Origin: Delftia acidovorans NBRC 14950
GTDB taxonomy: Bacteria > Pseudomonadota > Gammaproteobacteria > Burkholderiales > Burkholderiaceae_C
DNA length: 32,000 nucleotides
Reading direction: 5' to 3'
Assembly: GCF_001598795.1 (NCBI RefSeq)
Contig: NZ_BCZP01000021.1
Location: forward strand, 60,001-92,000
Part shown: positions 3,547 to 20,603 of the stretch, piece by piece
Position numbering within the stretch: position 1 is the first letter of the stretch
Layout: every line of letters starts with the position of its first letter
The notes under the pieces: model-generated
What the model was told of the DNA's origin: nothing
Databases searched by the model: none
What the model saw: the letters and a program-made list of their open reading frames with translations, nothing else
Translations under genes and position numbers: made by a program

Positions 3547-3726
3547 TCCCCCATTGCCGTTTTTCTGACCTGCAGTGCCCTGCGCCTGCGGTGCCTCTGC
3601 CGCTTCGGGACCCTGTCCTGAATGCCCGGCTGCCGGGCTGGCCCCTGGCTTTCCTTCTTCCCGGACCCATCGCCGCATGGGCCCTTTCTGCCGCAACTGC
3701 GGCTCCCGGTTCCCACAACACGTATC

Positions 3727-5064: not shown

Positions 5065-5560
5065 ACGCCGGGGCCCGCGCGGCGCATGGAAACTGCTGGC
5101 ATGCGCGGCGGCCGTGGTCTTCATGGCCGCCTGCCTGGACGGCGTGCAGGGCTACCCGCAACAGCAGGCGCCCATCATCAGCCCCTACGACATGACCCAG
5201 GAGCAGCGGCTTGCCGAAATGAACGTCATGGGCGCGGCCGGCCATGCCGACCATCGCTGGACCTACGAACTGCGCCCCGGCTGCGTGCTGCGCGTGGACC
5301 TGGACGGCCCGCAGGGCCCCAGGCCTTCGCATGACATCGCGCTGCTGGGCAGCGTGGTGGCCGTCACGGCCCAGCGCGAACGCGGCAGTTTCCGCGTGGA
5401 GCTGCAGCCCGGCGACGGCCTGCAGGCCGCGCGCTCCCTGGTGCTGGAAAGCGCCAAATGGGCCGACGCCAGCTGGACCCAGCTGCTGCTGCGCCTGATG
5501 CAAAAGGGCTGCGTGGAAATGCAGGGCCGCTCGCATGGCAGGGCCGCAAGCCGGCACTGA
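5051..5560 (+). CDS. Putative lipoprotein, unknown function
   Basis: The ATG at 5051 overlaps the end of the preceding gene by 14 nt. The signal/lipobox-like N-terminus is MPRAERRGPRGAWKLLACAAAVVFMAAC|LDG. GC3 is high. Confidence 0.6.
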   Translation: MPRAERRGPRGAWKLLACAAAVVFMAACLDGVQGYPQQQAPIISPYDMTQEQRLAEMNVMGAAGHADHRWTYELRPGCVLRVDLDGPQGPRPSHDIALLGSVVAVTAQRERGSFRVELQPGDGLQAARSLVLESAKWADASWTQLLLRLMQKGCVEMQGRSHGRAASRH

Positions 5561-7531: not shown

Positions 7532-7853
7532 GGGGTGTCTCCGGTGTCCTGGTTCTTGGGTTAGGGGCTTCAGCGCAGGGCGCACAGACCCTGGGCGGTT
7601 TCCATCTGGGGATCTGAGGGGCGTGGGAGCCGCCGGCCCGGGGTGCAATGCCCCGAAGGTCGGCCGCATGTCGGGCGCATGCCGGGCGCCGCGGTCCAGG
7701 CCGGCTGCGGCGGCGATGAGATGGTCAGGCTCCCGTGTCACGGCGCGTGTCATGTCGCGGTCCATGGTATCGGCTGCATGGCGGGGCCGGGCAGTACGCC
7801 TGGGCGAAAAGTCCCCAGTACAGTCCATGGCCCGCAGCGGTGGCAGTCGCCTG

Positions 7854-7870
7854 CTTGACAGCCTGTCAAG
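7854..7870. promoter_or_regulatory. Candidate operator: perfect 17-bp palindrome CTTGACAG-C-CTGTCAAG, with a third near half-site at 7886-7894
   Basis: I read it directly. It lies in the 595-bp divergent intergenic region between the alaX-like gene and the first gene of the large locus, and contains TTGACA on both strands. Confidence 0.3.
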
Positions 7871-8126
7871 TGGCGGTGCCCGCGACCTGACAAGATCGGC
7901 GCCCGCACCGCGTGCGTGCCGGGGAACAATGGCGTGGCCGTTGCGGATGGCGCTACAGATTTTTCCAAAGCTGACGACATACGCAGGGCATGAATCTGTG
8001 AGTTTTCCGAGGGACTGTCCGGATGGATCAAGAACTTTTGCTTCCGTCCGGTGCAGGCTCCACCCCCGTCTCCATCCCGGCAGGCCCTGGTTTGCGGCTG
8101 CCCACATTGTTCATCTCCTCATCCCC

Positions 8127-11069
8127 ATGAGCACTACCGATCTTCACGCGGCTTCCCTGAGCGATCTCTATGACCGGCTGCATGAAAGCCTCAGCGACGA
8201 GGCCTTTGCCGCCGAACTCGACGCCCGCCTGCATGACGGGCGGGCTGACGAGGTCCGCACCTTCCTGCGCGGCTGCGAGGAGCGTTGTCTCAACATCCTG
8301 GGGCATCTGAGCGGCAGCGACGCACCCTGGTCGCGTGACGGCGATCGCTGGCTGGCCTTTGCGCGGCTCACCGTGCCGCGCGGCCATGTGCTGTCGGGCC
8401 GCAGCGAGGAGCTGACCAATGCCCATGTGGCTGCCGAAGTGCGCGTGCTGGCCGAGCAATGGCTGGCCCACGCCCGCAGCGCCGACCTGCCTGTGTACAA
8501 GGGCATAGGCCTGGTGCTCGGCAGCCTGCTGCCCTGGCTCAGCTATCCCGGCATGCCCTATGACGAGGTGACGTCCACGCTGGACTGGGCGCTGGCGCTG
8601 CGCGAGGAGGCCGGGTTCCGCCGCAGCCATGAGTACCACGCGGCCTGGAAGCCCCTGGTCGCCCAGCTGAACGATGCCGACCTGCTGCGCTACGCCGCAG
8701 TGGGCGGCAAGCTGTTCGACGATGTGCTGGACCACTACCGCAACGAGCGCCAGCCCGGGCAGCCCAAGGGCCAGGGCTGGAAGGACTGGCTGCCTTTCTT
8801 TGCCGAGCATCCCCAGCTCTTCGACAAATCCTACATAGATGATCCCGACCTGATCGGGCAGCGCTGGGCCAGTGCCGGCGCGCCCCGGCGAGAGGAACTG
8901 GCCGCGCTGCTGCTCAGCCAATTGACCTACTCCCAGCGTGCCGAGCGGACGAGCGCATTGCAATTGCTGGACCGCCTCGTGGCCGAGGATTCCGCGCCCT
9001 TTGCCAAGCAGCTGCGTGAGAACGGCCGCTACCAGATCAGCCTGGCGCTGGCCATGCATGTCATGAAGCAGGACGATGCCGCCTTGCTGCCCCTGCTGCT
9101 GCCCGCCATGGCCCAGCGCTGCGACCGCGAGGACGAGCTGCGCCGCTACCGCAGCGTGATCCGCGAACTGGTGACCCGCCGCCCGGCCGATCTGGCCGAG
9201 GTGCCTGTCAAGGACCTGGTCAATGTGCTGCCCGCGTTCGACACCGCCAGCCTGAAGGCCACGCTGCCCACCTTGACCCCGCTCATCGCAGGCAGCAGCG
9301 CAAAGGGCCTGCGCGCCGCCATGGCCGGTCTGGCCGCCCATATTCCGCTGGCCAGCTTGGTGGATGCCGGCTGGCTGAACAAGCCGCCCAAGAACCTGCT
9401 GCTGACCTGCCGCGACGTGCTGCTGGCCCACCCCGACCCCGCTGTCGGTCCCTTGCTGGCGCAGTTGCTGGCCGGCGGCAAGCTGGATGCGGCCTCGGCC
9501 AGCAGCGTGCAGCAGCGGCTGCAGCAGTTGGGCCTGACAGGGCAGGGCGCCTCGACATCGGATGAAAGCCAGGCAGATGCCGCATCGCCAGCGTCTGCCG
9601 CTGGCGGCGTGGATCTGCAAGCCCAGCTCGCCTCCATCAAGCGCCTGAGCGCGGCCATCAAGCCCTTCGATACGCCCGAGCTGCTGGCGCTGTGCGCGCC
9701 GCTGTCCGAACACGCGGCCCGCGTGCTGCTGCATGTGTCTGCCATTGCCGAAGGCGGCCTGCCGCCGCTGGCCGGCGAGCTGCTGGCGCGCATTCCGGCC
9801 GACAACCGTGCCCGCCTGGCGCTGGCCCTGGTGCAGCAATGGATTGCTTCCGAGGGCGAGCCCAAGCAGCGCTGGGCGCTCAGGCTGCTGCCCGGCCATG
9901 CCGATGACCGCGTGGTCGATGCGCTGGTGTCCGCCGTCCAGGCCTGGAACCGCCCGCGCCTGCAGCGCGCGGCCGCCGCCGTGGAGCATCTGGGCGAGGT
10001 GGACAGCCTCTACGCTCTGCTGCGCGTGCAGGAGATCTCCGAGTCGCGCTCGCTCAAGGACCAGGTGCAGCGCACGGCGCGCATCGCCCTGCGCGCTGCC
10101 GCCGCGCGCCGCAAGATGAGCGTGCCCGAACTCTTCGACGAGCTGACGCCGGACTTCGGCCTGGGCCAGGGCCTGACGGTCACGGTCGGGCCGCAGAGCT
10201 ACCGCGTGGAGCTGCAGGGCGATCTGAGCCTGCGCGTCATCAACGACAAAAACAAGGCCAGCAAGACCATTCCTGCGGTCAAGGACGAGGCGCTCAAGCC
10301 CGAATGGGAGGCGGCCACCGCGCAGCTCAAGACCCTGGCCACCAGCCTCAAGACCGTGGTCAAGCAGCAGGCGCCGCGCATGCTGGCGGCCCTGGTCAGC
10401 GGCAAGCGCTGGCCGCTGGATCGCTGGCAGCGGCTGTTCGTGGCCCACCCGTTGCTGCGCATCGTGGGGCGCAGCCTGATCTGGCGCGCCGAGGATGCGC
10501 CGGGCCTGGCGCGCACCAGCTTCCGCTTGGCCGAGGATTTCTCGCTGGTCGATGTGGAGGATGAAACCGTGACCCTGCCCGCTGGCTGCAGCATCAGCCT
10601 CTGGCACCCGGCCACGGCCCAGCCCGGCGAGCGCGAAGCCTGGCAGGCCTACATGGCCGACTATGAGCTGGAGCCCCTGGTCGACCAGCTGGGCGCCTGC
10701 GCCGAGCAGCCCGCGCCCGGCCAGTTCAAGAACGGCATGCTGCTGCCGCCCGCGCCGATCACGCTGGCGCAAGAGCAGCTTGGCGGCCTGCTCAAGAAAT
10801 TCGGCTACCGGCCCGGCCCCGTGGGCGATGGCCCCAGCATCAATGAGCATGTGTGGCGCCTGCCCGCGCTGGAGCTGAGCCTGGAGTTGTCGCACGGCTA
10901 TTTCCCGCCCTACCTGGACCTGGGCCTGCCCGTGGCCGTGGAAGGCCTGCGAGTGCACGACCTGAGCAAGGAATACGGGGCCAGCGCCGACCCGGCGCGG
11001 CTGCCCAAGCCGCTGCTGGCCACGCTGCAAGGCCAGTGGCTGGCCCTGGCGGCCAAGGCGGCTGCCTGA
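8127..11069 (+). CDS. Large helical-repeat protein with a C-terminal DUF4132-like module (YehI/MolR-like), paralog 1, 980 aa
   Basis: The ATG at 8127 gives an N-terminus colinear with paralogs 2 and 3. The shared C-terminal signature is ELTPDFGLG...LQGDLSLR...KQQAPR...RWPLDRWQRLFVAHPLLRIVGRSLIWR...LWHP...ADYELEPLVDQL...GPVGDGPSI. I recall the family assignment from memory and did not search for it. Confidence 0.85.
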   Translation: MSTTDLHAASLSDLYDRLHESLSDEAFAAELDARLHDGRADEVRTFLRGCEERCLNILGHLSGSDAPWSRDGDRWLAFARLTVPRGHVLSGRSEELTNAHVAAEVRVLAEQWLAHARSADLPVYKGIGLVLGSLLPWLSYPGMPYDEVTSTLDWALALREEAGFRRSHEYHAAWKPLVAQLNDADLLRYAAVGGKLFDDVLDHYRNERQPGQPKGQGWKDWLPFFAEHPQLFDKSYIDDPDLIGQRWASAGAPRREELAALLLSQLTYSQRAERTSALQLLDRLVAEDSAPFAKQLRENGRYQISLALAMHVMKQDDAALLPLLLPAMAQRCDREDELRRYRSVIRELVTRRPADLAEVPVKDLVNVLPAFDTASLKATLPTLTPLIAGSSAKGLRAAMAGLAAHIPLASLVDAGWLNKPPKNLLLTCRDVLLAHPDPAVGPLLAQLLAGGKLDAASASSVQQRLQQLGLTGQGASTSDESQADAASPASAAGGVDLQAQLASIKRLSAAIKPFDTPELLALCAPLSEHAARVLLHVSAIAEGGLPPLAGELLARIPADNRARLALALVQQWIASEGEPKQRWALRLLPGHADDRVVDALVSAVQAWNRPRLQRAAAAVEHLGEVDSLYALLRVQEISESRSLKDQVQRTARIALRAAAARRKMSVPELFDELTPDFGLGQGLTVTVGPQSYRVELQGDLSLRVINDKNKASKTIPAVKDEALKPEWEAATAQLKTLATSLKTVVKQQAPRMLAALVSGKRWPLDRWQRLFVAHPLLRIVGRSLIWRAEDAPGLARTSFRLAEDFSLVDVEDETVTLPAGCSISLWHPATAQPGEREAWQAYMADYELEPLVDQLGACAEQPAPGQFKNGMLLPPAPITLAQEQLGGLLKKFGYRPGPVGDGPSINEHVWRLPALELSLELSHGYFPPYLDLGLPVAVEGLRVHDLSKEYGASADPARLPKPLLATLQGQWLALAAKAAA

Positions 11070-11139
11070 GCCTTTGTGAACCTTTGCTCCCTTGAAACGT
11101 TGGCCGCCCGACCGCCCATCACCGAAGACTCCACAGACC

Positions 11140-14136
11140 ATGAGCAACAACGAGACAGCAGCGCTTCCCCTGCAGGCTTTGTACGAACTGCACACGGCCG
11201 CTCCGGCCGGGCGCGAGGGCATGCCGGCCTTTGCCGCCGAACTGGCAAAGCGCCTGGCCCAGGGGCGTGATGCCGAGGTGGCGGACTTCCTGCGCGACAG
11301 CAGCAGCCTGTGCCAGGAACGGCTGCACCAGCTGCCCGGCGAGCATGCGCCCTGGCAGCGCGACCACGCGCTGTGGCTGGCGCTGGCGCGCATCAGCCTT
11401 CCGCTGGGACAGTTCTATGGGGGCAACTCGGGCGTGCCCCGGCGCAGTGCCGAGCTGACCGCGGAGCTGACGGCACTGGCCCGCGCCTGGCTGGATGACT
11501 GGGGCACCCGCACCCACCAGCCCTGGAGATTGCGCGATGGCTACGACCTCGTGCTCAGGCAGGTGTTTGGCGTGCTGGGCCATGAAGGCATGTCCAGTGC
11601 CGAGGTCACCGGCCTGCTGCGCTGGGCGCGGGAACTGAGCGCAAAGGCCGGCATTGCGCCCGGCGCGCAGTACTACTGCCACTGGCAGCACCTGCTGCAC
11701 CAGCTGCCCGAGCCCGAACTGCTGGCCATGGCCATCGAGGACGGCGGCGGCCAGCTCAGCCGCGACATCGTCCAACGCCAGCTGCCGCTGCAGCGCACGC
11801 GGCCTGCAGGGCAGCGCTGGGCGCTGTGGCGGGATTTTTTTGCGCAATTCCCCGCCGTGCTTGACCAGCTGCGCCTGCCCGAGCCCGTGCTGATTGCATC
11901 GCGCTGGGAGGCGGCCGATGCCGCGCGCCGCGACCTGCTGGCCCAGGACCTGTTCAAGGCCTTGTGCTTTGCCTCGGACGATGACTGGCCGCATGACCGT
12001 GCCCTGGTGGAGCGCATGCTGCAGACCGATGCCGCACCGCTGGTCGCCTGGTTCAAGCAACTGGGCCACCTGGCGATCAATCCCGTCGTGGCGCAGCGGC
12101 TGTGGGACGCCCGGTGGCCGGCCCTGCTGCCGCTGCTATTGCCGGCCTGCGCAGACGGCTGCAAGCACGAATCCGACCGCGCCGGCTACGCCCCGGTGGC
12201 CGAGACCCTGCTGGCCGATCGCCCTGGCGACCTGGCCCGGCTGGCCGCCGGCCCGCTCACGCACCTGCTGCCCGCGCTGCGCGTGGACACGCTTCAGCGG
12301 CTGCTGCCGCAACTGGGCAAGGCCGCCTCCAGCAGTGCCTCCAAGGGCTTGCGTGCGGCGCTGGCACAGGCCCTGTCTGCCTTGCCCGTGGATGCGCCCC
12401 AGGCCGCCGGCTGGCTGGCCAAGCCCAACAAGAACCTGGTGCTGGCCTACCGCGATGTGCTGGTGGCCCATTCTGATCCGGCGTCTGGCAGCCTGCTGTC
12501 GGCACTGCTGTCCGGTGGATTGCTGGAGGTGGCCGAGCAAGGCCCGGTGCAGGCGCGCCTGAAGGATCTGGGTGCCGCAGCCCCGGTTGCGGACGCAGCC
12601 AGGCCACCTGCCGGCGAGGTCGCTCCGGCAGGCAGCGATGGTGCCGGCTCCCTGGCAGATCTTGAAGCCCAGGCCGCCAGCCTGCAGCGCCTGTCGCCCG
12701 CCATTGCCGCGCTGGACCAGCCGGCGCTGCTGGACCTGCTCGCGCCCCTGTCGGCCCAGGCCGCGCGTGCGCTGCTGCACCTGGCGGCCACCAGCCCGCA
12801 GGAGCTGCCGGCGCTGGCCCACCACCTGCTGGCCCAGGCCAGCGCCGAGAATCGCGCGCGGCTGGCCCAGGCCCTGGTCCAGCACTGGGTGGCTGCCGAT
12901 GGCGCGCCCGAATCGCGCTGGGTGCTCAAGCTGCTGCCCGGCGCGGCGGACGACCGCATCGTCGATGTGCTGTCCTCGGCCGCCCTGGCTTGGCACAAGA
13001 CGCGCAAGGAGCGCGCCGTGGTCGCGCTGCAGCAGCTGGGCCGGCTCGACACGGTCTATGCCCTGTCCTGCGTGCAGGCCCTGGCCACCGGCAAGACGCT
13101 CAAGCCCAGCGTGCTGGCTGCCGCGCAGGCCGTGCTGGCCGAGGCCGCCACGCGGCGCGGCATGGTGCTGGCCGACCTCAGTGATGAGCTGACCCCGGAC
13201 TTCGACCTGGGCCGGGGCGTGCAATTGCAAGTGGGCGCGCAGACCTATGACGTGCTGCTGCAGGGTGACCTGTCGCTGCGCCTGCGCACGCCGGCCGGCA
13301 AGCTGGTGCGCAGCCTGCCGGCCCTGGCCGACGAGGGCCTGCGCACGGAGTGGGATGCGGCCGCCGCGCGGCTCAAGACGCTGTCCAAAGGCATCAAGGC
13401 CGTGCTGCAGCAGCAGGCGCCACGCCTGCAGTCCTGCCTGATGCTGGGTCGGCACTGGCCGCTGGACACCTGGCGCCGCCTCTTCCTGGAGCACCCGCTG
13501 CTGCGCGTGGTGGCACAGGGCCTGGTCTGGCGGGTGGAGCCCGCGGCCGGCCAGCCGTTCAGCCTGCGCATTGCCGAAGACTTGTCCCTGGTCGATGCCG
13601 AGAGCGACGCGGTGCAACTGCCGGGCGAGGGCCGCATCGCCCTGTGGCACCCCGCGCAGGCCACCGAACAGGAGCGTGCGCAGTGGCGCGAATGCCTGGC
13701 CGACTACGGCCTCAAGGCCCTGATCGAGCAGGTCGATGCGCCCGCCGACCTGCCACTGGCCAGCCAGTGGCAGCATGAGCTGCTGCAGCCCCAGGCACCG
13801 ATACGGCTCACGCAGCAGGCGCTGGACGGCCTGGCAGGCCCATGGCGCTTTCATGCCGGCCCTGTGTGCGATGGCCCCGGCATCTACCTGCACCTGCGGG
13901 ACTTTGCCGTGCAGCGCTGGCGCGTGGAACTGCTGCACAGCGCGGCCATGCCGTACTACGAGCCCGGCCATGAAATCGACATCGAAGGCTTTGCCCTGCG
14001 CGACATGGCCGCCGACCGCCTGCTGCCCCCGGCCGAATGGCCGCTGCCGCTGCAGGCATCGCTGTGCGGCATGCTCCAGGCCCTGGCCTCGCGCGCTGCG
14101 GGCGCGGCAGCCGCAGCGGCTGCAGCCCAGGTTTGA
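11140..14136 (+). CDS. DUF4132-like large protein (YehI/MolR-like), paralog 2, 998 aa
   Basis: I preferred the ATG at 11140 (MSNNETAALPLQALYELH) over the TTG at 11092 because it aligns with the other paralog N-termini. It has the same motif series (APWQRD..LWLALAR, GWLAKPNKNLVLAYRDVLVAHSDP, ELTPDFDLG, LQGDLSLR, QQAPR, HWPLDTWRRLFLEHPLLRVV, LWHP, ADYGL) and ends in a poly-Ala tail. Confidence 0.85.
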   Translation: MSNNETAALPLQALYELHTAAPAGREGMPAFAAELAKRLAQGRDAEVADFLRDSSSLCQERLHQLPGEHAPWQRDHALWLALARISLPLGQFYGGNSGVPRRSAELTAELTALARAWLDDWGTRTHQPWRLRDGYDLVLRQVFGVLGHEGMSSAEVTGLLRWARELSAKAGIAPGAQYYCHWQHLLHQLPEPELLAMAIEDGGGQLSRDIVQRQLPLQRTRPAGQRWALWRDFFAQFPAVLDQLRLPEPVLIASRWEAADAARRDLLAQDLFKALCFASDDDWPHDRALVERMLQTDAAPLVAWFKQLGHLAINPVVAQRLWDARWPALLPLLLPACADGCKHESDRAGYAPVAETLLADRPGDLARLAAGPLTHLLPALRVDTLQRLLPQLGKAASSSASKGLRAALAQALSALPVDAPQAAGWLAKPNKNLVLAYRDVLVAHSDPASGSLLSALLSGGLLEVAEQGPVQARLKDLGAAAPVADAARPPAGEVAPAGSDGAGSLADLEAQAASLQRLSPAIAALDQPALLDLLAPLSAQAARALLHLAATSPQELPALAHHLLAQASAENRARLAQALVQHWVAADGAPESRWVLKLLPGAADDRIVDVLSSAALAWHKTRKERAVVALQQLGRLDTVYALSCVQALATGKTLKPSVLAAAQAVLAEAATRRGMVLADLSDELTPDFDLGRGVQLQVGAQTYDVLLQGDLSLRLRTPAGKLVRSLPALADEGLRTEWDAAAARLKTLSKGIKAVLQQQAPRLQSCLMLGRHWPLDTWRRLFLEHPLLRVVAQGLVWRVEPAAGQPFSLRIAEDLSLVDAESDAVQLPGEGRIALWHPAQATEQERAQWRECLADYGLKALIEQVDAPADLPLASQWQHELLQPQAPIRLTQQALDGLAGPWRFHAGPVCDGPGIYLHLRDFAVQRWRVELLHSAAMPYYEPGHEIDIEGFALRDMAADRLLPPAEWPLPLQASLCGMLQALASRAAGAAAAAAAAQV

Positions 14137-14159
14137 CTCCCTCCAGAACCCCTGAATCC

Positions 14160-17087
14160 ATGACCTCTTCGACCCTAGAACACACCGACCAGGCCACGCT
14201 GGAGGAACTGAGCGCCTCGCTGCCACCCGCCGAACTGGTCCAGGTGCTGGCCAGCCGCATGCGCGCGGGCCGGCATGACGAAGTGGGCGCCTTCACGCGC
14301 AAGGCCTTCGACGACTATTCCAACCCCATCCGCGCCCTGGGCAACTTCGATCTGCCCTGGACCCATGACCATGACCTGTGGCTGGCCTTCGCGCGGCAGA
14401 CCATCCCCTTCGGGCGCAGGATCGACGGCAGCCTGGACGGCGACATTCCACGCCACAGCCCCGAGCTTGCGGCCGAGTTCGAGCAGATGGCGCGCGCCAG
14501 CCTGGCCCGTCCACCTGCGCCGGACGGCGACAACGACTACCGTGAAATCCGCATCCTGGACATGTTCGGCTGGCTCTGGTACCCGGGCATCAGCCGCGAA
14601 CGGGTGATGCAGCAGCTGGACTGGGCCGCAGAGCTGAACGTCCAGTCCGGCGCCAGGTATGACAGAACCGACTGGAAGCTGCTGCTGGGCAGCCTGGAAG
14701 ACCAGGACCTGATGGAGCTGGCCGAGCGCGGCGGCGCGCTCTATGCCGACATCCGCGATGTCTACATGACGCGGCACAGCGACGTTCCGCACCCGCAGCG
14801 CTGCGCGCCCTGGTACGACTTCTACCGCCGCCATCCCGACTGGTTCGACGACAAGCCCATCAACGAAGACCCGGGCCTGATCGCGCTGCGCTGGGACCTG
14901 GGCGCCGACGCCCAGCGGCGCCTGGAACTGGTCAACCTGCTGCTGGGCAGGGCGGACCGCGAGCCGGCTGATTACTTCATCTCCATTTTCGACCGCCTGG
15001 TGCGGGAGGATGCCGCGCCCTTCGTCGCCTGGATCGAAGGATGGCAGCCCAAGTACCACTTCGATGCGGTGGTCGCCCGGCAGATCTGGACGGCACGCTA
15101 CCCGGAGCTTTTGCCCCATCTGCTGCGCTGCATATTGCAGAAATCGCGCATTGAGCCCTTCATCGGCCTGCTCAACCAGATGCTGACCGAGCAGCCCGAC
15201 TATCTGCGCGAGATTCCCACCGTGCGCCTGGCCCCGCTGCTGGCGCAGCTGGACCCGGCCATGCTGCATGCCCGGCTGCCCCTGCTGGGCGAACTGCTGG
15301 CGGCCAGCAGCTCGCGGGCGCTGCGCGAAGCGGTGGCGCGCTTCATGCAAGGGCTGGATGCGCAGGCCGTAGGCGCTGTCTTCGAGTCCAACGCCTGGCT
15401 GCAGCGGCGCGAGAAAGCGATGCAGCTGGCCTGCCGCGACATCCTGCTGGCCCACCCCGATCCCGGGGTCGCACCGCTGCTGCAGGCGCTGCTGCGCACG
15501 GGCCTGGACCTGGGCTCCGAAAGCATGGTCGAGGGCCGGCTGCTGGCCCTGGGTGTCTCAGTGCCAGGCGCTCTGACCGTGGCGCAGGGGGAGGGGGGCC
15601 GGGTCCCGCTCGATGCGCTGGAGGCCCGCGTGGCGCGCTTCAAGCGCTTTTCCAGCAGCATCAAGGCCTATGACCAGCCAGAGACCCTGGCCCTGTTCGC
15701 GCCGCTGTCCGGGCATGCGGCACGCACCGTGCTGCACCTGGTGGCCACGGCCGAGGAAGAACTGCCGCCGCTGGTGGAGCAGTTGCTGGCCCATGTGCCG
15801 GCCGAAAGCCGCGCCCAGCTGTCCCTGCACCTGGTCAATGCCTGGGTGGCCCTGGAGGGCGAGCCCAAGGCGCGCTGGGCGCTGCGCCTGGCCACCGGCC
15901 ATATCGACGACCGCCTGGTGCAGACCCTGGTGGCCGCCGTGAAGGCCTGGGGCTGGAGCAAGAAGCTGCGCGCCATCATCGCCGTGGAGCAGCTCGGTGC
16001 GCTGGACACGCTGTACGCGCTGTCCCAGGTCCAGACCCTGTCCAGCTCGCGCAAGCTCAAGGATCTGGTGATTGAAGCCACGCATGACGCGCTCAAGGCG
16101 GCCGCCCAGCGCCGCGGCCTGAGCCTGATCGAGCTGTATGACGAGCTGACGCCCGATTTCGGCCTGGGCGGCGAAGGCCTGGTGCTGGAGGTGGGCCCGC
16201 AGCGCTACCGCCTGCAGCTGCAGGGCGACCTGAGCCTGCGCGTGGTCGGCGACAAGGGCAAGGCCTCCAAGACCCTGCCTGCGCTCAAGGACGAATCGCT
16301 GCGCCTGCAGTGGAATGCGGCCCAGGCCGAATTCAAGACCGTTGCCGCAGGCGTCAAGGCCATCGCCAAGCAGCAGGTGCCGCGCCTGGGTACCGCCTTC
16401 ATGACGGGACAGCGCTGGTCCGTCCCGCGCTGGCGCAGATTGTTCCTGCTGCATCCCCTGCTGCGCATCGTGGGCCGCAGCCTGATTTGGCGGCTGGAGC
16501 AGGGCGCCAGCTTTCGCATTGCCGAGGACTTTTCCCTGCTCGACGCCACCGACGATGCCGTGGAGCTGCCCGACGACGCACAGGTGCTGCTCTGGCATCC
16601 GGTCGATGCCGCAGCGGGCGAGGTTGAAGCCTGGCGCACCTGCCTGGCCGACTACGAGCTGCAGCCGCTGATCGACCAGCTGAACGCAGGCGCACAACTG
16701 CCCGAAGCCGGGCAGTGGAAGAACCATGCCCTGCACCCCGCCGGCCCGCTGCAGATACGCCAGGGCGCGCTGTCCGGCCTGCTGGCCAAGTGGAACTACC
16801 GCCCCGGCCCCGTGGGGGACGGCCCCGGCATCTACGAGCACAAGCTGGACCTGGCAGGCCCGCAGCTGTACATCGAACTCCACCACGGGCGCTACCTGCC
16901 GTTCATGGACCTGGACAACCGCGTGGACATCACCCATGCCGTGGTCTATGACAGCAGCCACCGCGGCGACGATGGCCGCTGGCCCCGGCTGCAGCCGCAG
17001 CAGTGGCCGCGCGCACTGCAGGCCACGCTGATGGCGCAGTTCGCGGCCATCGCCGCCAAATCGGCCAGCACCAAAGAGAGCGACTGA
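14160..17087 (+). CDS. DUF4132-like large protein (YehI/MolR-like), paralog 3, 975 aa
   Basis: It starts at the ATG at 14160 (MTSSTLEHTDQATLEELSASL) and has the same motif series. By eye it is closest to paralog 1 in the C-terminal third (ELTPDFGLG, LQGDLSLRVVGDKGKASKTLPALKDE, HPLLRIVGRSLIWR, ADYELQPLIDQL, RPGPVGDGPGI). Confidence 0.85.
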   Translation: MTSSTLEHTDQATLEELSASLPPAELVQVLASRMRAGRHDEVGAFTRKAFDDYSNPIRALGNFDLPWTHDHDLWLAFARQTIPFGRRIDGSLDGDIPRHSPELAAEFEQMARASLARPPAPDGDNDYREIRILDMFGWLWYPGISRERVMQQLDWAAELNVQSGARYDRTDWKLLLGSLEDQDLMELAERGGALYADIRDVYMTRHSDVPHPQRCAPWYDFYRRHPDWFDDKPINEDPGLIALRWDLGADAQRRLELVNLLLGRADREPADYFISIFDRLVREDAAPFVAWIEGWQPKYHFDAVVARQIWTARYPELLPHLLRCILQKSRIEPFIGLLNQMLTEQPDYLREIPTVRLAPLLAQLDPAMLHARLPLLGELLAASSSRALREAVARFMQGLDAQAVGAVFESNAWLQRREKAMQLACRDILLAHPDPGVAPLLQALLRTGLDLGSESMVEGRLLALGVSVPGALTVAQGEGGRVPLDALEARVARFKRFSSSIKAYDQPETLALFAPLSGHAARTVLHLVATAEEELPPLVEQLLAHVPAESRAQLSLHLVNAWVALEGEPKARWALRLATGHIDDRLVQTLVAAVKAWGWSKKLRAIIAVEQLGALDTLYALSQVQTLSSSRKLKDLVIEATHDALKAAAQRRGLSLIELYDELTPDFGLGGEGLVLEVGPQRYRLQLQGDLSLRVVGDKGKASKTLPALKDESLRLQWNAAQAEFKTVAAGVKAIAKQQVPRLGTAFMTGQRWSVPRWRRLFLLHPLLRIVGRSLIWRLEQGASFRIAEDFSLLDATDDAVELPDDAQVLLWHPVDAAAGEVEAWRTCLADYELQPLIDQLNAGAQLPEAGQWKNHALHPAGPLQIRQGALSGLLAKWNYRPGPVGDGPGIYEHKLDLAGPQLYIELHHGRYLPFMDLDNRVDITHAVVYDSSHRGDDGRWPRLQPQQWPRALQATLMAQFAAIAAKSASTKESD

Positions 17088-18211
17088 TGGCCACCAAACG
17101 CATTGCAGCGGCCACCCCGGAACCTGCCGCCCAGCGGCTGCCGGCCGAGATGGCCCACGCCCAGGAACTCGCGGCCCTGCAGGCCGCCGACCAGGGCCCG
17201 CGCCCCGACGGCTGGCGCCTGAGCCCGCGCTCCGTGCGGCGCTTCATCCTGGGCGGTGCGGAGCCTGACGGCGGCGGGCCTGCCATCGCGCGCAAGATCC
17301 ACGGCAACGATGCCCTGGTCGAGCGCGCCATCGTCACCCTGGCCGGCCAGCGCGGCCTGATGCTGGTGGGCGAGCCGGGCACGGCCAAGTCCCTGTTGTC
17401 CGAGCTGCTGGCCGCCGCCATCAGCGGCGACAGCAAGCTCACCGTGCAGGGCGGTGCCGGCGTGGTGGAAGAGCAGATCCGCTACGGCTGGAACTACGCC
17501 CTGCTGCTGCGTGACGGCCCTGGCCCCGAAGCCCTGGTGCCCGGCCCGCTGCACCGCGCCATGGGGGAAGGGCGGCTGCTGCGTTTCGAGGAAATCACGC
17601 GCTGCTCCACCGAAGTGCAGGACTGCATGGTGCCCGTGCTCTCCGAGCGGCTGCTGCAGATTCCCGAACTCAAGCACGAGCAGCCCTGGCTGCTGGCACG
17701 GCCGGGCTTCAATGTGATTGCCACGGCCAACCTGCGCGATCGCGGCGTCAACGAGATGTCGGCCGCGCTCAAGCGCCGCTTCAACTTCGAGACCATGCGC
17801 CCGCTCGAAGGCGTGGCCGCGCAGGCCGCATTGATAGGGCAGGAGGTGGGCCGCGCACTGGCGCAGCAGCGCATCGGCACCACCGTCGCGCCCGATGTGC
17901 TGGCCCTGCTGGCCACGGCCTTCCAGGAGCTGCGCAGCGGCAGCGTTGAGGGCACGGCCGTGGAGCGGCCGGGCACCGTGCTGTCCACGGCCGAGGCCAT
18001 CGACGTGGCCTTCAACGCCGCCTGCCAGTGCTGGTACTTCGGGCAGGAGCAGGTGGGTCCGGCCCACCTGGCGCGCCACCTGCTGGGCACGGTGATCAAG
18101 GACGACGACGAGGACCGGCGCCGTTTCGCCGAATACCTGCGCGTGGTGGCACGCCAGCGCGCAGGGCAGCCGCAGTGGCAGGACTTTGTCGCAGGCGGCC
18201 GTGAGCACTGA
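17087..18211 (+). CDS. MoxR-like AAA+ ATPase (YehL-like), 374 aa
   Basis: The ATG overlaps the upstream stop by 1 nt (TGATG). Motifs: Walker A GEPGTAKS (17369-17392), Walker B-like LLRFEEITR, sensor-1 NVIATAN and the Arg-finger region SAALKRRF. Confidence 0.85.
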   Translation: MATKRIAAATPEPAAQRLPAEMAHAQELAALQAADQGPRPDGWRLSPRSVRRFILGGAEPDGGGPAIARKIHGNDALVERAIVTLAGQRGLMLVGEPGTAKSLLSELLAAAISGDSKLTVQGGAGVVEEQIRYGWNYALLLRDGPGPEALVPGPLHRAMGEGRLLRFEEITRCSTEVQDCMVPVLSERLLQIPELKHEQPWLLARPGFNVIATANLRDRGVNEMSAALKRRFNFETMRPLEGVAAQAALIGQEVGRALAQQRIGTTVAPDVLALLATAFQELRSGSVEGTAVERPGTVLSTAEAIDVAFNAACQCWYFGQEQVGPAHLARHLLGTVIKDDDEDRRRFAEYLRVVARQRAGQPQWQDFVAGGREH

Positions 18212-20603
18212 CGCTGCCGCGTGGCTGGCGCCGCTGCCGCAGCTGCGCCTGGTGCCCGTGCGCCACCACAGCCCGCGCTGCGCCCACCACCTGCGCGCGC
18301 TGATGCGCGAGTTCAAGCCCACCCACGTGCTGATCGAAGGCCCGGGCGAGCTCGATGCCCTGCTGCCCGCGCTGCAGCACGCCCAGGCGCGTCCCCCGCT
18401 GGCCGCCTACCTGCATGCGGCCATGGCCGGGCCCGGCGCGGCCGAGCAAGACTGGCGCTGCCGTTGCTACGTGCCCTTTGCCGCCTTCTCGCCCGAATGG
18501 GTGGCCCTGCGCGAGGCGGCGCGGCTGCGCAGCGCCGTGCGCTTCATCGACCTGCCCTATGCCGACAGGCTGGCGCAGGCCGCGCAGCTGGACTACTTCG
18601 CCTGCGCGCCCGAACCCCTGCTGGCCGACGAGCCCGCACGGCGCGCGCCCGACGTGCTGGCCGGCCTCATCCAGGCCAGCGGCTGCCGCGATTTCGACGA
18701 ATGGTGGGACCGGCATTACGAATCTGGCAACGAGGACGCCTCGCCCCAGGCGTACTTTGCCGGCGTGCTGGCCTTCAGCCAGCTGCTGCGCGAGCGCGAG
18801 CAGGGCGCGGGCGGCAGCGGCATGGATGCCGAGGACGTGGCGCGCGAGGCCCACATGGCCGCTCAGGTCAGCGCGGCCCTGGCCGAAGGCGGGCGCTGCC
18901 TGGTGGTCTGCGGCGGCTTCCATGTGCCCGGCATCGTTGCCGGCCTCTCGGCCCCCGCCTGGCCTGCGGACGCCAGGCCCGCCATCGATGTAGGCGTGCA
19001 CCTCATTGCCTACACGCTGCAGCGGCTGGAGCGCGCCGGCGGCTACGCGGCCGGCATGCCCATGCCTGGCTACTACCAGGGCGTATGGCAGGCGCTGGAA
19101 CAGGGCGCTTCGCAACCCGATGCCCAGGCCTGGCCCGAGATGGCGGCACGCACCGTGAACAGCCTGCGCGCCCGGGGCATGCCCGCCAGCCTGCCTGAGG
19201 CGGCCGAGGCCGTGCGCCTGGCCCATGGTCTGGCCGCCTTGCGCGCCTGCCGCGGCGGCCGGGCCGAGCTGCTGGAAGCGCTGGACAGCGCCGTGTTCAA
19301 GGAGCATGCCCAGGCCCTGCGACCGCAGCCTATGGTGCAGCAGACCGGGCAGCAGACTGCTCAATGGCTGCTGGACGCCGACGACTACGGCCAGCTGCCA
19401 CCCAACGCGCCGGCCGCCCCGCTGCTGGTCGATGTGCAGGCCTTCTGCCTGCGACACCGTCTGCCCGTGCGGCCCGCCGCCCCCGTGCGCAAGGAGCTGG
19501 ACATCTACCGCAGCGCCCGCCACCGCCGGCTGTCGCAGGGGCTGCACCGCCTGTGCTACCTGGGCGTGCCCTATGCGCAGCGCCTGGCCGGGCCGGACTT
19601 CGTGGCGGGCACGGGCCTGGCGCGTGTGCGCGAGGTCTGGACGCTGGGCTGGCAGGTCGAGACCACGGTGGCCCTGACCGAGGCCATGTGTCACGGCTCC
19701 AGCCTGGAGGAAGCCGCGGTGCACCTGGTGCGCGAGCGCCTGGCGCAGACGGCCCACACGGAGCCCGCGCAGCGCGTGCTGGAGGTGCTGGTCATGGGGC
19801 TGGACGGCATCGCCCAACAGGTGCTGGACACCGTGCAGGCCTGGATGGAGCGCAGCCACGACGCGCTGGCCCTGGCCCGCGCCACGGGCTGCCTGGCCCT
19901 GGCCTACGAGGCCCGCCATGCGCTGGGCGGCGTGGGCCTGGCGCGCCTGCTCCCGCTGCTGCGGCGCTGCTTTGCGCAGGCCTGCCTGCGCCTGCCCTGG
20001 CTGGGCGAGGGCGATGCATCCCAGCAGGCACAGGCCCTGGATGCCCTGGCCGATCTGCACGGCATGGTCTGCCGCCACGCGCCCTGGGCCGACGCCGGCC
20101 TGTTCCACGATGCCTGTGCCGCCCTGCATGAGGCAGGCGCCGACAGCACGCCCGAGCCCGTGCGCGGCGCCACGGCCGGCATCCTGAGCATGGCCGGCCG
20201 CTGGCAGATCGCGCAGACCGATGCCGCCCTGCGCGCCATGCTGGGCCTGGCGCAGGTCGATGCTGCCGCCATGGGCGAATACCTGCAGGGCTTTGTGCGC
20301 GTGGCCAAGGGCTGGCTGCTCAGCCATCCGCCGCTGCTGCGCCTGCTCAGTGACGGCATTGCGCACTGGCCGGAAGACGCCTTCCTGGCCGGCCTGCCCG
20401 CCTTGCGGCTGGCCTTTGCCCAGCTGACCCGTGCCGAACTGCGGCAGCTGGCCGGGCGGCTGGCGGGTCTGTCGGGCGCGGCCACGTCACCCGGCGCAAC
20501 CACGCTGGCCTCCGTGCACCTGCCATCGGACGAGGCCCTGGCGCACGGCCGCGCCTTGGCGGCCCAGGTGGGCCGGCTGCTGCAACCCTGGGGACTGTCA
20601 TGA
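18201..20603 (+). CDS. Large uncharacterised protein, YehM-like (DUF5682-type, recalled from memory), ~800 aa
   Basis: The frame is open from the TTG at 18186. The GTG at 18201 overlaps the ATPase stop by 11 nt, so the start is uncertain by +/-15 nt. The N-terminus is LRLVPVRHHSPRCAHHLRALMREFKPTHVLIEGPGE...FSPEW, and the rest is Ala/Leu-rich and helical. The stop overlaps the next ATG (ATGA). Confidence 0.75.
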   Translation: MSTDAAAWLAPLPQLRLVPVRHHSPRCAHHLRALMREFKPTHVLIEGPGELDALLPALQHAQARPPLAAYLHAAMAGPGAAEQDWRCRCYVPFAAFSPEWVALREAARLRSAVRFIDLPYADRLAQAAQLDYFACAPEPLLADEPARRAPDVLAGLIQASGCRDFDEWWDRHYESGNEDASPQAYFAGVLAFSQLLREREQGAGGSGMDAEDVAREAHMAAQVSAALAEGGRCLVVCGGFHVPGIVAGLSAPAWPADARPAIDVGVHLIAYTLQRLERAGGYAAGMPMPGYYQGVWQALEQGASQPDAQAWPEMAARTVNSLRARGMPASLPEAAEAVRLAHGLAALRACRGGRAELLEALDSAVFKEHAQALRPQPMVQQTGQQTAQWLLDADDYGQLPPNAPAAPLLVDVQAFCLRHRLPVRPAAPVRKELDIYRSARHRRLSQGLHRLCYLGVPYAQRLAGPDFVAGTGLARVREVWTLGWQVETTVALTEAMCHGSSLEEAAVHLVRERLAQTAHTEPAQRVLEVLVMGLDGIAQQVLDTVQAWMERSHDALALARATGCLALAYEARHALGGVGLARLLPLLRRCFAQACLRLPWLGEGDASQQAQALDALADLHGMVCRHAPWADAGLFHDACAALHEAGADSTPEPVRGATAGILSMAGRWQIAQTDAALRAMLGLAQVDAAAMGEYLQGFVRVAKGWLLSHPPLLRLLSDGIAHWPEDAFLAGLPALRLAFAQLTRAELRQLAGRLAGLSGAATSPGATTLASVHLPSDEALAHGRALAAQVGRLLQPWGLS

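What the first reader, a model, noticed from the sequence alone, without database searches (positions are those of the whole stretch)
8127..17087. Tandem triplication of the ~1000 aa DUF4132-like gene with mosaic divergence
The three head-to-tail genes (980, 998 and 975 aa) are colinear from the first residues (MSTTDLHAASLSDLYDRL / MSNNETAALPLQALYELH / MTSSTLEHTDQATLEEL) to the end. The C-terminal ~350 aa share long identical strings (ELTPDF.LG, LQGDLSLR, QQ.PR, W..LF..HPLLR.V...L.WR, LWHP, ADY.L, GPV.DGP.I). By eye, paralogs 1 and 3 are roughly 60% identical in that region. The N-terminal ~500 aa are much more diverged. Each protein has a different low-complexity Ala/Gly/Pro/Ser linker in the middle (about nt 9530-9610, 12560-12660 and 15550-15600). 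A conserved docking half with a diversified other half is the pattern expected for interchangeable specificity subunits. The three copies could also support recombinational shuffling, because short near-identical nucleotide patches exist, for example around 10141, 13186 and 16144.
Basis: seen in the sequence. Interest (0 to 1): 0.7.

Follow-up and report, generated by a model that had tools for sequence, protein, structure and literature searches.

The report
Three old DUF4132 paralogs, MoxR operon
Three diverged copies of a large protein of unknown function (DUF4132, the E. coli YehI/MolR family) sit head to tail in front of a chaperone-like ATPase gene cluster in Delftia; the arrangement is real but old, stable and seen in other bacteria, and the copies show no sign of actively recombining with each other.

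Summary
Three colinear + strand genes (980, 998 and 975 aa) each carry Pfam DUF4132. Their N-terminal ~470 aa are 34-39% identical and their C-terminal ~480 aa 47-55%.

- The array is the upstream part of an operon. The downstream genes encode AAA_5/MoxR, DUF5682, VWA_CoxE and SWIM proteins, the counterpart of E. coli yehH-yehI + yehLMPQ.
- Relatives carry 1-4 DUF4132 copies. An unrelated lineage has the same three-copy layout.
- G1 and G3 each have orthologs in other genera. G2 is restricted to Delftia.
- All three genes are under purifying selection (omega 0.23-0.31).
- The N half evolves about twice as fast as the C half among orthologs as well as between paralogs, so the partition is a family-wide difference in constraint.
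- The longest exact DNA match between copies is 18 nt. Trees of the N and C halves agree on the clades. Ongoing shuffling is therefore not supported.
- AlphaFold gives an N-terminal HEAT/ARM-like solenoid, a disordered linker and an alpha/beta core with no solved relative.

The function is unknown. The most likely role is as alternative partner or client scaffolds of the MoxR-VWA machine. Interest is modest.

The parts
8127..11069 (+). G1, DUF4132 paralog 1 (980 aa). Predicted N-terminal alpha-solenoid aa 1-470, disordered linker aa 473-494, helical region aa 497-672, alpha/beta DUF4132 core aa 683-950, terminal helix aa 961-979.
   Evidence: Translation. Pfam PF13569 at aa 712-891, E 5e-29. 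AlphaFold2 pLDDT 86.7. Orthologs in 7 other loci. omega 0.31 versus D. tsuruhatensis.
11140..14136 (+). G2, DUF4132 paralog 2 (998 aa). It is the most divergent copy and is restricted to the D. acidovorans/D. tsuruhatensis lineage.
   Evidence: Translation. PF13569 at aa 720-866, E 3e-26. Forms a single 50%-identity cluster (P0049 plus fragments) among 1.84 billion representatives. omega 0.23.
14160..17087 (+). G3, DUF4132 paralog 3 (975 aa). Its stop codon overlaps the ATPase start codon (TGATG).
   Evidence: Translation. PF13569 at aa 700-843, E 2e-28. Orthologs in L002, L006, L003 and L007. omega 0.23. Junction sequence.
9543..9608 (+). G1 disordered Ala/Ser/Gly/Asp-rich linker (aa 473-494). 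The wider low-complexity stretch is nt 9519-9656.
   Evidence: pLDDT below 50. A/G/P/S fraction 0.63.
12541..12714 (+). G2 Ala/Pro/Gly-rich linker (aa 468-525).
   Evidence: A/G/P/S fraction up to 0.73.
15540..15610 (+). G3 short inter-domain linker, at approximate coordinates. It is not low-complexity by the 60% A/G/P/S criterion.
   Evidence: Alignment gap region in A1 columns ~495-520. No window reaches 0.6.
8144..9043 (+). 5' segment of G1 (about aa 1-305) that is 79-87% identical in nucleotides to D. tsuruhatensis. The rest of G1, G2, G3 and the ATPase gene are mostly 93-99% identical in 150-nt windows. There is a sharp breakpoint near 9044.
   Evidence: Sliding nucleotide identity. dS 0.43 versus 0.075, omega 0.32. 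This indicates an imported divergent allele, not positive selection.
17087..18211 (+). MoxR-type AAA+ ATPase (AAA_5; YehL-like), about 374 aa counted from the ATG that overlaps the G3 stop codon.
   Evidence: PF07728 E 5e-33. Walker A GEPGTAKS. Homologous to the E. coli yehL product (phmmer 338 bits).
18186..20603 (+). DUF5682 protein (YehM-like). The exact start codon was not determined.
   Evidence: PF18934 E 1e-109.
20600..21844 (+). VWA_CoxE protein (YehP-like) with an intact MIDAS motif, DQSGS.
   Evidence: PF05762 E 5e-48. Motif at aa 254.
21805..23529 (+). SWIM zinc-finger protein (YehQ-like). The exact start codon was not determined.
   Evidence: PF04434, 20.6 bits against a cut-off of 19.6. 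Motifs CSCPAFGPCHH and CSCKAAACAH.
7565..8126 (+). Non-coding leader of about 560 nt upstream of G1. It has no coding periodicity, no LexA box and no Rfam match.
   Evidence: GC3 profile. LexA-box search. Rfam scan.

Best explanation
The three genes are old, individually maintained paralogs of the DUF4132 (E. coli YehI/MolR) family. They form the 5' part of one operon with a YehLMPQ-type module: a MoxR AAA+ ATPase, a DUF5682 protein, a VWA/MIDAS protein and a SWIM protein.

Each protein has two parts joined by a flexible linker. The first is a fast-evolving N-terminal HEAT/ARM-like solenoid. The second is the conserved family core, a helical region followed by an alpha/beta DUF4132 domain. The conserved-C/variable-N pattern reflects this domain architecture and a roughly two-fold difference in constraint that holds across the whole family. 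It does not reflect cassette diversification or shuffling.

Inferred mechanism: MoxR-VWA pairs are known to remodel dedicated client complexes through a VWA adaptor. By analogy, the conserved C-terminal module would be the part that engages the shared ATPase/VWA/DUF5682/SWIM machinery, or carries the common activity. The three different solenoids would bind different partners. The three proteins would then act as alternative scaffolds, adaptors or clients of one machine.

Shown here: homology, domain layout, operon linkage, copy-number variation, age of the duplications and purifying selection. Inferred only: physical interaction with the machine and any specificity role.
For: GENE CONTENT AND OPERON
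- Pfam DUF4132 is present in all three genes.
- The downstream genes on the same strand encode AAA_5, DUF5682, VWA_CoxE and SWIM proteins.
- Gaps between the genes are 70 and 23 nt, and the G3 stop codon overlaps the ATPase start codon.
- No terminator-like site lies in the short gaps between the genes.

SAME LAYOUT ELSEWHERE
- E. coli K-12 has the same gene order: yehH(pseudo)-yehI-yehK-yehL-yehM-yehP-yehQ.
- The distant locus L082 has WGR+DUF4132, DUF4132, DUF4132, AAA_5, DUF5682, VWA_CoxE, SWIM.
- Relatives carry 1-4 copies.

AGE AND SELECTION
- G1 and G3 form ortholog clades that span genera, and the N-half and C-half trees recover the same clades.
- omega is 0.23-0.31 for all three genes. 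Both halves are below 0.5.
- The N:C distance ratio is about 2 within orthologs and between paralogs alike.
- Most of the 5,916 family representatives match only profile positions ~540-950. YehI matches only G1 aa 562-948.
- All three copies keep the family's near-invariant residues W572, W583, W607, W762, W786, R800, H827, P828, W839, D845, Y846 and Q854.

STRUCTURE AND MOTIFS
- AlphaFold model with pLDDT 86.7 shows a solenoid, a linker and an alpha/beta core. Foldseek hits are HEAT/ARM solenoids.
- Walker A, MIDAS and SWIM motifs of the partner proteins are intact.

BACKGROUND
YehL is one of seven recognised MoxR subfamilies. MoxR proteins are thought to have chaperone-like roles in the maturation of specific protein complexes (PMC3893208).
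Against: - No experiment and no interaction prediction links DUF4132 proteins physically to the ATPase/VWA module.
- Most distant ATPase-DUF5682-VWA loci have no DUF4132 gene within 10 kb. They carry DUF5691 instead, which shows no detectable homology to DUF4132.
- Some DUF4132 genes occur without the module, for example Streptomyces L083. The association is therefore not obligatory.
- The DUF4132 core has no solved structural relative, so its activity cannot be read from the fold.
- DNA-damage regulation in E. coli and Deinococcus points to a role that the adaptor model does not predict.
Confidence: 0.6

Rival explanations
1. First reader's model. The copies are interchangeable specificity subunits whose variable halves are actively re-assorted by recombination between the tandem genes, as in a cassette or shuffling system.
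For: - There are three tandem colinear copies with a more conserved C half.
- Copy number varies between lineages.
- G2 shows a possible old chimeric signal. Residues 613-960 group with the G3 clade in 183/200 bootstraps. Residues 1-470 group with the G1 clade in 127/200.
Against: - The longest exact nucleotide match between copies is 18 nt, and in-register identity is 61-78%.
- No recombinase gene was seen among the genes characterised in the window. An inverted-repeat scan was not run.
- The N-half and C-half trees recover the same clades.
- Each paralog is conserved as an ortholog across species under purifying selection.
- The N:C rate ratio is no higher between paralogs than among orthologs.
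Confidence: 0.03
2. The DUF4132 proteins are DNA-damage-response factors in which the alpha/beta core carries an activity of its own. The conserved R800/H827/D845/Y846/Q854 residues would form the active or binding site. The three copies would be functionally diverged isoforms, and the link to the MoxR module would be secondary.
For: - E. coli molR (yehH) is listed as a LexA-regulated gene with a known SOS box (PMC6590174).
- D. radiodurans DRA0166 (DUF4132) and DR2173 (WGR) are strongly induced on DdrO depletion (PMC8533742).
- Many family members carry or neighbour a WGR domain. From general knowledge, this domain is also found in poly(ADP-ribose) polymerases.
- Polar residues are near-invariant across 127 diverse members.
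Against: - No LexA box lies upstream of G1. CTGT-N8-ACAG with up to 1 mismatch has no site in 7560-8126, and the window has fewer sites than chance predicts.
- None of the three Delftia proteins has a WGR domain.
- There is no fold match to any enzyme.
- Translational coupling to the ATPase gene argues for joint function.
Confidence: 0.2
3. The locus is an unrecognised anti-phage or conflict system. The multiple fast-evolving solenoids would be sensors for different invaders.
For: - The distribution is patchy in a way that suggests horizontal transfer. The ATPase is 78-83% identical across Comamonadaceae, Rhodocyclaceae, Ectothiorhodospira and Pseudomonas.
- Copy number ranges from 1 to 4.
- G1 aa 1-305 and the DUF5682, VWA and SWIM genes show mosaic divergence between the two Delftia species.
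- The locus in L082 lies next to an AbiEii gene.
Against: - None of the seven proteins matches PADLOC.
- The core has no phage hits and is rare on plasmids.
- Flanking genes here are housekeeping types: an AlaX-like gene, an azurin-like gene, CorC and PEP mutase.
- omega is below 0.5 everywhere.
- No recognisable effector domain is present.
- The array is disrupted in a successful E. coli ST131 sublineage, where the paper reports no associated phenotype (PMC9334617).
Confidence: 0.1
4. One or two copies are redundant duplicates drifting towards pseudogenes.
For: - E. coli K-12 yehH is a pseudogene.
- Some Massilia copies look truncated, e.g. 636 aa in L011 and a 442-aa fragment in L009.
Against: - All three reading frames here and in D. 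tsuruhatensis are intact.
- omega is 0.23-0.31.
- The family's near-invariant residues are kept in all three copies.
Confidence: 0.03

Closest known systems
E. coli yehH (molR)-yehI with yehLMPQ (YehL subfamily of MoxR AAA+ ATPases)
   Same: Tandem DUF4132 genes lie directly upstream, on the same strand, of AAA_5 ATPase, DUF5682, VWA and SWIM genes. The DUF4132 core is homologous: G1 aa 562-948 versus YehI, 28% identity, E 2e-30. The function is unknown in both.
   Different: - E. coli has two copies, one of them a pseudogene in K-12, against three here.
- E. coli has a separate WGR protein (YehF) and a small yehK gene. No WGR domain is found here.
- YehI is 1210 aa, and its N-terminal part has no detectable similarity to G1-G3.
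- A LexA box is reported for molR. None is found here.
SWIM-DUF5691-AAA_5-DUF5682-VWA five-gene clusters (e.g. Vitreoscilla L031, Dyella L037, cyanobacterial L069)
   Same: The ATPase (42-48% identical), DUF5682 and VWA core is homologous, and a SWIM protein is present. A helical accessory protein, with a weak HEAT-like match in one member (L069), sits immediately upstream of the ATPase.
   Different: The accessory protein is a single ~520-aa DUF5691 protein rather than a DUF4132 array. SWIM is upstream rather than downstream. No profile similarity between DUF5691 and DUF4132 was detected (hhalign probability 0.5%).
Characterised MoxR-VWA pairs (RavA-ViaA, CbbQ-CbbO, NorQ-NorD, CoxD-CoxE)
   Same: An AAA+ MoxR-family ATPase is encoded next to a VWA/MIDAS protein. 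The family is thought to have chaperone-like roles in the maturation of specific protein complexes (PMC3893208). The other named pairs are from general knowledge.
   Different: This system has additional DUF5682, SWIM and DUF4132 components. No client complex is known. The ATPase scores far below the curated cut-offs of the only two NCBIfam AAA+ models it weakly matches, GvpN and MadB.
Multi-copy specificity-subunit cassettes (e.g. phase-variable Type I restriction hsdS loci, shufflons)
   Same: There are several tandem copies with one better-conserved and one more variable part.
   Different: There are no long identical repeats. No recombinase gene was seen among the genes characterised in the window. 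There is no evidence of exchange between copies.
Eukaryotic HEAT/ARM solenoid adaptors (exportin CRM1, karyopherins, CAND1)
   Same: The helical parts of G1 match these at the fold-class level (Foldseek E about 1e-4).
   Different: TM-scores are only 0.15-0.21 and identity 9-14%. This is generic solenoid similarity and does not indicate homology or shared function.

Membership tests
DUF4132 (Pfam PF13569; YehI/MolR family) | Match to the PF13569 profile above the gathering score (27 bits) | tested here: met
   G1 101.8 bits, G2 92.8 bits, G3 100 bits.
DUF4132 (Pfam PF13569; YehI/MolR family) | Retention of the family's near-invariant core residues (W572, W583, W607, W762, W786, R800, H827, P828, W839, D845, Y846, Q854 in G1 numbering) | tested here: met
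   These residues are at least 90% conserved over 127 diverse members. They are invariant columns in the G1/G2/G3 alignment.
WGR + DUF4132 architecture (MolR-type) | N-terminal WGR domain (PF05406) in the protein or in a gene at the head of the array | tested here: not met
   G1-G3 give no WGR hit at E <= 0.01. The upstream ORFs give no hit either. E. coli YehF and the first gene of L082 do have WGR.
YehLMPQ-type MoxR system | Adjacent same-strand genes for an AAA_5 MoxR ATPase, DUF5682, VWA (CoxE-like) and SWIM proteins | tested here: met
   PF07728 5e-33, PF18934 1e-109, PF05762 5e-48, PF04434 20.6 bits against a cut-off of 19.6. Motifs are intact. The order is the same as in E. coli K-12.
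YehLMPQ-type MoxR system | Physical or functional interaction of the DUF4132 proteins with the ATPase/VWA machinery | not testable with these tools
   Only operon linkage and start/stop codon overlap are shown. No complex prediction or experiment was available.
MoxR-vWA-beta-propeller ternary systems (bpMoxR, PF20030) | bpMoxR domain above the gathering score, plus a beta-propeller partner | tested here: not met
   bpMoxR scores 20.5 bits against a cut-off of 27. None of the seven operon proteins has a beta-propeller domain.
Known anti-phage defence systems (PADLOC-DB v2) | Match of any component to a PADLOC model | tested here: not met
   No families matched any of the seven proteins.
Recombinational cassette / shuffling loci | Long near-identical direct or inverted repeats between copies, and a site-specific recombinase | tested here: not met
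   The longest exact match is 18 nt, and direct in-register repeats are 61-78% identical. No recombinase gene was seen among the genes characterised in the window. Inverted repeats were not scanned.
HEAT/ARM repeat proteins | Alpha-solenoid of paired helices, with sequence-profile matches to HEAT/ARM repeat families | tested here: inconclusive
   The fold class is supported by the model and by Foldseek. G1-G3 have no Pfam HEAT/ARM hit. Some relatives carry HEAT_2 matches: P0047 and, weakly, the neighbouring DUF4132 gene in L084.
LexA (SOS) regulon member, as reported for E. coli molR | CTGT-N8-ACAG operator in the promoter region | tested here: not met
   No site with up to 1 mismatch lies in 7560-8126. 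The window has 6 such sites against 10.5 expected by chance.

The most novel reading that the evidence does not exclude
The DUF4132 paralogs would be alternative substrate-selecting adaptors. Each would dock through the conserved C-terminal module onto a single MoxR-VWA-DUF5682-SWIM remodelling machine. The number and identity of solenoid 'heads' (1-4 per genome) would set the client range. The system as a whole would belong to DNA-damage or stress responses, as suggested by LexA control in E. coli and DdrO control in Deinococcus. That would define a modular, multi-adaptor AAA+ system in bacteria with a new alpha/beta docking fold.
Probability: 0.2. Interest if true: 0.6.

Novelty: new member of a known kind. 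Interest (0 to 1): 0.3.

Why it matters
DUF4132 proteins and the YehLMPQ-type MoxR module are widespread. The DUF4132 family has 5,916 clusters at 50% identity, and related ATPase modules occur in many phyla. Yet no function is known, and the alpha/beta core has no solved structural relative. This locus adds a clean, fully intact three-paralog example with orthologs for comparison. It shows which part of the protein is the conserved family core and which residues are invariant. Together with the literature, it points to testable links with a MoxR-VWA machine and with DNA-damage regulons. It does not reveal a new genetic mechanism. The suggested cassette shuffling is not there.

Tried and rejected
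- The 981-aa minus-strand ORF 2179-5124 was checked as a possible fourth paralog. It is a spurious high-GC antisense frame.
- An N-terminal extension of G1 was considered, because the frame is open back to 7497. There is no coding periodicity upstream of 8127, and the orthologs start at the same Met.
- PADLOC and NCBIfam gave no names for any component.
- Sequence search of the PDB with the paralog profile gave no hit.
- A profile-profile test for homology between DUF5691 and DUF4132 was negative.
- A LexA-box search upstream of G1 was negative.
- The sigma-70 promoter scan found no sites. The Rfam scan found nothing.
- An iterated HMM search for DUF4132 in 65 distant ATPase loci found none within 10 kb.
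- A second word-indexed homolog search with an alignment added only two new proteins.
- No dS-based dating of the paralogs was attempted, because they are only 34-55% identical. Only ortholog comparisons were used for dN/dS.
- Literature searches for DUF4132, yehL/M/P/Q, DUF5682/DUF5691 and MoxR+SWIM+vWA+WGR found no functional study of the system.
- A chimeric origin of G2 was tested. The raw three-sequence maximum chi-square test is not significant (p = 0.09). The clade-consensus test and the segment bootstraps are suggestive only. The G1-like 5' / G3-like 3' polarity is the opposite of what one unequal crossover in a G1-G3 array would leave in the middle gene. I therefore do not claim it.


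Full report
WHAT IS THERE

The window is about 70% G+C. It comes from Delftia acidovorans or a very close relative: G1 is 98-99% identical to D. acidovorans proteins, and the ATPase is 99% identical to that of D. tsuruhatensis NBRC 16741.

Three + strand genes lie head to tail:
- G1, 8127-11069, 980 aa
- G2, 11140-14136, 998 aa
- G3, 14160-17087, 975 aa

They align over their full length. Identity to G1 is 43% for G2 and 46% for G3. Each carries Pfam DUF4132 at about aa 700-890 (E 3e-26 to 5e-29). A 981-aa minus-strand ORF of similar size (2179-5124) is a spurious antisense frame.

CHECKING THE DESCRIBED PATTERN

The C-terminal part is better conserved than the N-terminal part.
- Residues 1-470 are 34-39% identical and residues 500-980 are 47-55% identical.
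- For G1/G3 the last 350 aa are 54% identical and aa 660-910 are 59%.
- The change is graded, and the last ~60 residues are again poorly conserved.
- The N halves alone are still clearly homologous (E 2e-52 to 3e-66).

Ala/Gly/Pro/Ser-rich linkers are present in G1 (nt 9519-9656) and G2 (nt 12541-12714). The G3 linker is short and not low-complexity.

The 'near-identical nucleotide patches' are not confirmed. The sites at 10141, 13186 and 16144 are the codons of the DELTPDF(G/D)LG motif, with a 14-nt exact match. The longest exact match between any two copies is 18 nt. An independent repeat scan finds only in-register copies at about 3.0 kb spacing with 61-78% identity.

GENOMIC CONTEXT

Directly downstream on the same strand are four genes:
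- an AAA_5 MoxR-type ATPase
- a DUF5682 protein
- a VWA_CoxE protein
- a SWIM zinc-finger protein

Their Walker A, MIDAS and CxC...CxH motifs are intact.

The gaps between the DUF4132 genes are 70 and 23 nt. The G3 stop codon overlaps an in-frame ATG of the ATPase gene (TGATG at 17085-17089). No terminator-like site lies in the short gaps between the genes.

This is the gene order of E. coli K-12: yehF(WGR)-yehH(DUF4132 pseudogene, 'molR')-yehI(DUF4132)-yehK-yehL-yehM-yehP-yehQ. G1 matches YehI only over aa 562-948 (28% identity, E 2e-30). YehL names one of seven recognised MoxR subfamilies, and no function for it turned up (PMC3893208).

None of the seven proteins matches PADLOC, and NCBIfam offers no usable names.

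RELATED LOCI

Eighty loci anchored on the ATPase were fetched. DUF4132 copy number next to the ATPase varies:
- 1 copy: an Azoarcus MAG, Ectothiorhodospira, a Rhodocyclaceae MAG
- 2 copies: Delftia sp. PS-11, Pseudomonas linyingensis, another Rhodocyclaceae MAG, E. coli
- 3 copies: this window and D. tsuruhatensis
- 3-4 copies: Massilia, some of them truncated

In three Lysobacteraceae loci the single copy lies between the ATPase and DUF5682 genes.

A distant lineage (L082, 26% identity to G1) has WGR+DUF4132, DUF4132, DUF4132, AAA_5, DUF5682, VWA_CoxE, SWIM. This is the same three-copy layout, and it sits next to an AbiEii gene.

More distant ATPase loci instead have the order SWIM-DUF5691-AAA_5-DUF5682-VWA. 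DUF5691 shows no detectable profile similarity to DUF4132. Some DUF4132 genes occur without the module.

The family is large: 5,916 representatives at 50% identity, most matching only profile positions ~540-950. It is essentially chromosomal, with 30 of 72,556 plasmid records and no phage record.

AGE AND MODE OF EVOLUTION

Trees built separately from the N half (aa 1-470) and the C half (aa 500-940) recover the same groups:
- a G1 clade and a G3 clade, each spanning Delftia, Rhodocyclaceae and Pseudomonas
- a long G2 branch found only in D. acidovorans and D. tsuruhatensis
- three separate Massilia clades

The G1/G3 duplication is therefore old, and Massilia expanded its array independently.

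G2 forms a single 50%-identity cluster among 1.84 billion representatives. Every other relative scores higher against G1 or G3 than against G2. In Delftia sp. PS-11 the G1-like and G3-like reading frames are 13 nt apart, which leaves no room for a G2 remnant.

Comparison with D. tsuruhatensis gives these omega values:

| Gene | omega |
|---|---|
| G1 | 0.31 |
| G2 | 0.23 |
| G3 | 0.23 |
| Four downstream genes | 0.14-0.24 |

N halves give 0.26-0.45 and C halves 0.11-0.29. These ranges include the comparisons with Delftia sp. PS-11. None of the copies is decaying, and no part of them approaches omega = 1 when averaged over halves.

If the N halves had diversified specifically between paralogs, the ratio of N-half to C-half distance should be higher between paralogs than among orthologs. 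It is not:

| Comparison | N:C distance ratio |
|---|---|
| Within G1 orthologs | 2.48 |
| Within G3 orthologs | 2.08 |
| G1 clade versus G3 clade | 2.10 |
| G2 versus the G1 or G3 clade | 1.49, 1.69 |

The N half simply evolves about twice as fast everywhere. Distant relatives retain only the C-terminal core. The pattern is therefore a property of the family's domain architecture.

STRUCTURE

AlphaFold2 models G1 with mean pLDDT 86.7:
- aa 1-470: all-alpha solenoid
- aa 473-494: disordered linker
- aa 497-672: helical
- aa 683-950: mixed alpha/beta (the DUF4132 core)
- aa 961-979: terminal helix

Foldseek hits for the whole model are HEAT/ARM solenoids such as CRM1, karyopherins, CAND1 and FANCD2/I. 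E is about 1e-4 and TM-scores are 0.15-0.21, so this is fold-class similarity only.

The core modelled alone (pLDDT 89, pTM 0.84) has no significant match in the PDB or BFVD. The paralog profile finds no solved relative by sequence.

Across 127 diverse family members the near-invariant residues are W572, W583, W607, P675, G688, P716, W762, W786, R800, H827, P828, W839, D845, Y846 and Q854. G1, G2 and G3 keep all of them.

FUNCTIONAL LEADS FROM THE LITERATURE

No paper describes the function of DUF4132 or YehLMPQ. The available leads are:
- E. coli molR/yehH is listed among LexA-regulated genes with a known SOS box (PMC6590174). It is also activated by BglJ-RcsB (PMC3950696).
- In D. radiodurans the DUF4132 gene DRA0166 and the WGR gene DR2173 are strongly induced on depletion of the damage-response repressor DdrO (PMC8533742).
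- In E. coli ST131 sublineage L1a the DUF4132 region is disrupted by a transposon in 184 isolates, so it is dispensable (PMC9334617).

In Delftia I found no LexA box upstream of G1 and no WGR domain.

BEST EXPLANATION

The three genes are old, individually maintained DUF4132 paralogs that are co-expressed with a YehLMPQ-type MoxR-VWA module. MoxR-VWA pairs are known to remodel dedicated client complexes through a VWA adaptor. By analogy, I infer that the conserved C-terminal module engages the shared machinery or carries the common activity, and that the divergent solenoids bind different partners.

The evolutionary and architectural statements are shown. The interaction and any specificity role are inferred. 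Rivals are listed with their weights: an autonomous damage-response enzyme, an unrecognised defence system, active shuffling, and decaying duplicates.

SECONDARY OBSERVATIONS

Between this window and D. tsuruhatensis, the first ~900 nt of G1 are only 79-87% identical, with a sharp breakpoint near 9044. The rest of G1, G2, G3 and the ATPase gene are mostly 93-99% identical in 150-nt windows. In that segment dS is 0.43 against 0.075 for the rest of the gene, with omega 0.32. This indicates an imported divergent allele and not local positive selection. The DUF5682, VWA and SWIM genes show similar patchiness (dS 0.18-0.37).

G2 shows a tentative chimeric signal. A clade-consensus maximum chi-square test finds a breakpoint near aa 612 (0 of 2000 permutations reach it). 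Residues 613-960 group with the G3 clade in 183/200 bootstraps, and residues 1-470 group with the G1 clade in 127/200. The raw three-sequence test is not significant (p = 0.09). The polarity does not fit a single unequal crossover. I leave this open.

VERDICT

The locus is a new member of a known but uncharacterised kind. Interest is modest (0.3).

Noticed in passing
window 8144-9043 (G1 codons ~1-305) versus L002: There is a sharp mosaic boundary between Delftia species. This segment is 79-87% identical in nucleotides (dS 0.43, omega 0.32). From about 9044 onward, through G2, G3 and the ATPase gene, identity is mostly 93-99% in 150-nt windows (dS 0.06-0.09). It looks like homologous import of a divergent allele of the G1 N-terminal solenoid.
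   Followed up: partly
window 18186-23529 versus L002: The DUF5682, VWA and SWIM genes are patchily divergent between D. acidovorans and D. tsuruhatensis. Per-gene dS is 0.18, 0.26 and 0.37, and 60-codon blocks reach up to 0.54. The ATPase gene next to them has dS 0.06. All are under purifying selection.
   Followed up: partly
window 11140-14136 (G2): G2 is restricted to the D. acidovorans/D. tsuruhatensis lineage and sits on a long branch. Its residues 613-960 group with the G3 clade (183/200 bootstraps). Its residues 1-470 lean towards the G1 clade (127/200). An old chimeric origin is possible but not established.
   Followed up: partly
window ~7544-7750 (leader upstream of G1): About 200 nt of the non-coding leader are absent from D. 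tsuruhatensis L002, appearing as an alignment gap. No Rfam family, LexA box or sigma-70-like promoter was found in the leader.
   Followed up: partly
window 6821-~7530 (-): An AlaX-like editing-domain gene (tRNA_SAD plus the C-terminal part of tRNA-synt_2c) is transcribed divergently from the array. Coding periodicity supports only the 3' ~240 codons of the 428-aa ORF.
   Followed up: partly
window ~24666-27350: This segment has no counterpart at the syntenic position in D. tsuruhatensis L002, where only 27350-27845 matches again, at 86%. It includes ORF 25912-27273 (453 aa, only a weak ARM-like hit) and has lower G+C (0.65). It may be a strain-specific insertion.
   Followed up: no
L082 5139-23483: A distant lineage has the same layout: WGR+DUF4132, DUF4132, DUF4132, AAA_5, DUF5682, VWA_CoxE, SWIM. 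An AbiEii (toxin/abortive-infection family) gene lies immediately upstream.
   Followed up: partly
L031 6886-14649; L037 7001-14571; L069 6880-14817: A commoner variant of the system is SWIM-DUF5691-AAA_5-DUF5682-VWA. A ~520-aa DUF5691 protein, with a weak HEAT-like match in L069, occupies the position of the DUF4132 array. No homology between the two was detected.
   Followed up: yes
L013-L015 (~11100-14300): In Thermomonas and Lysobacteraceae loci the single DUF4132 gene lies between the ATPase and DUF5682 genes instead of upstream of the ATPase.
   Followed up: no
L009 2828-4153; L011 8033-9940: Some Massilia arrays contain truncated DUF4132 ORFs (442 and 636 aa), suggesting turnover of copies within these arrays.
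   Followed up: no
window 8028-11393 (-), 12136-14226 (-), 2179-5124 (-): Very long antisense ORFs (up to 1121 aa) overlap the real genes. They are the usual artefact of 70% G+C and lack coding periodicity of their own.
   Followed up: yes
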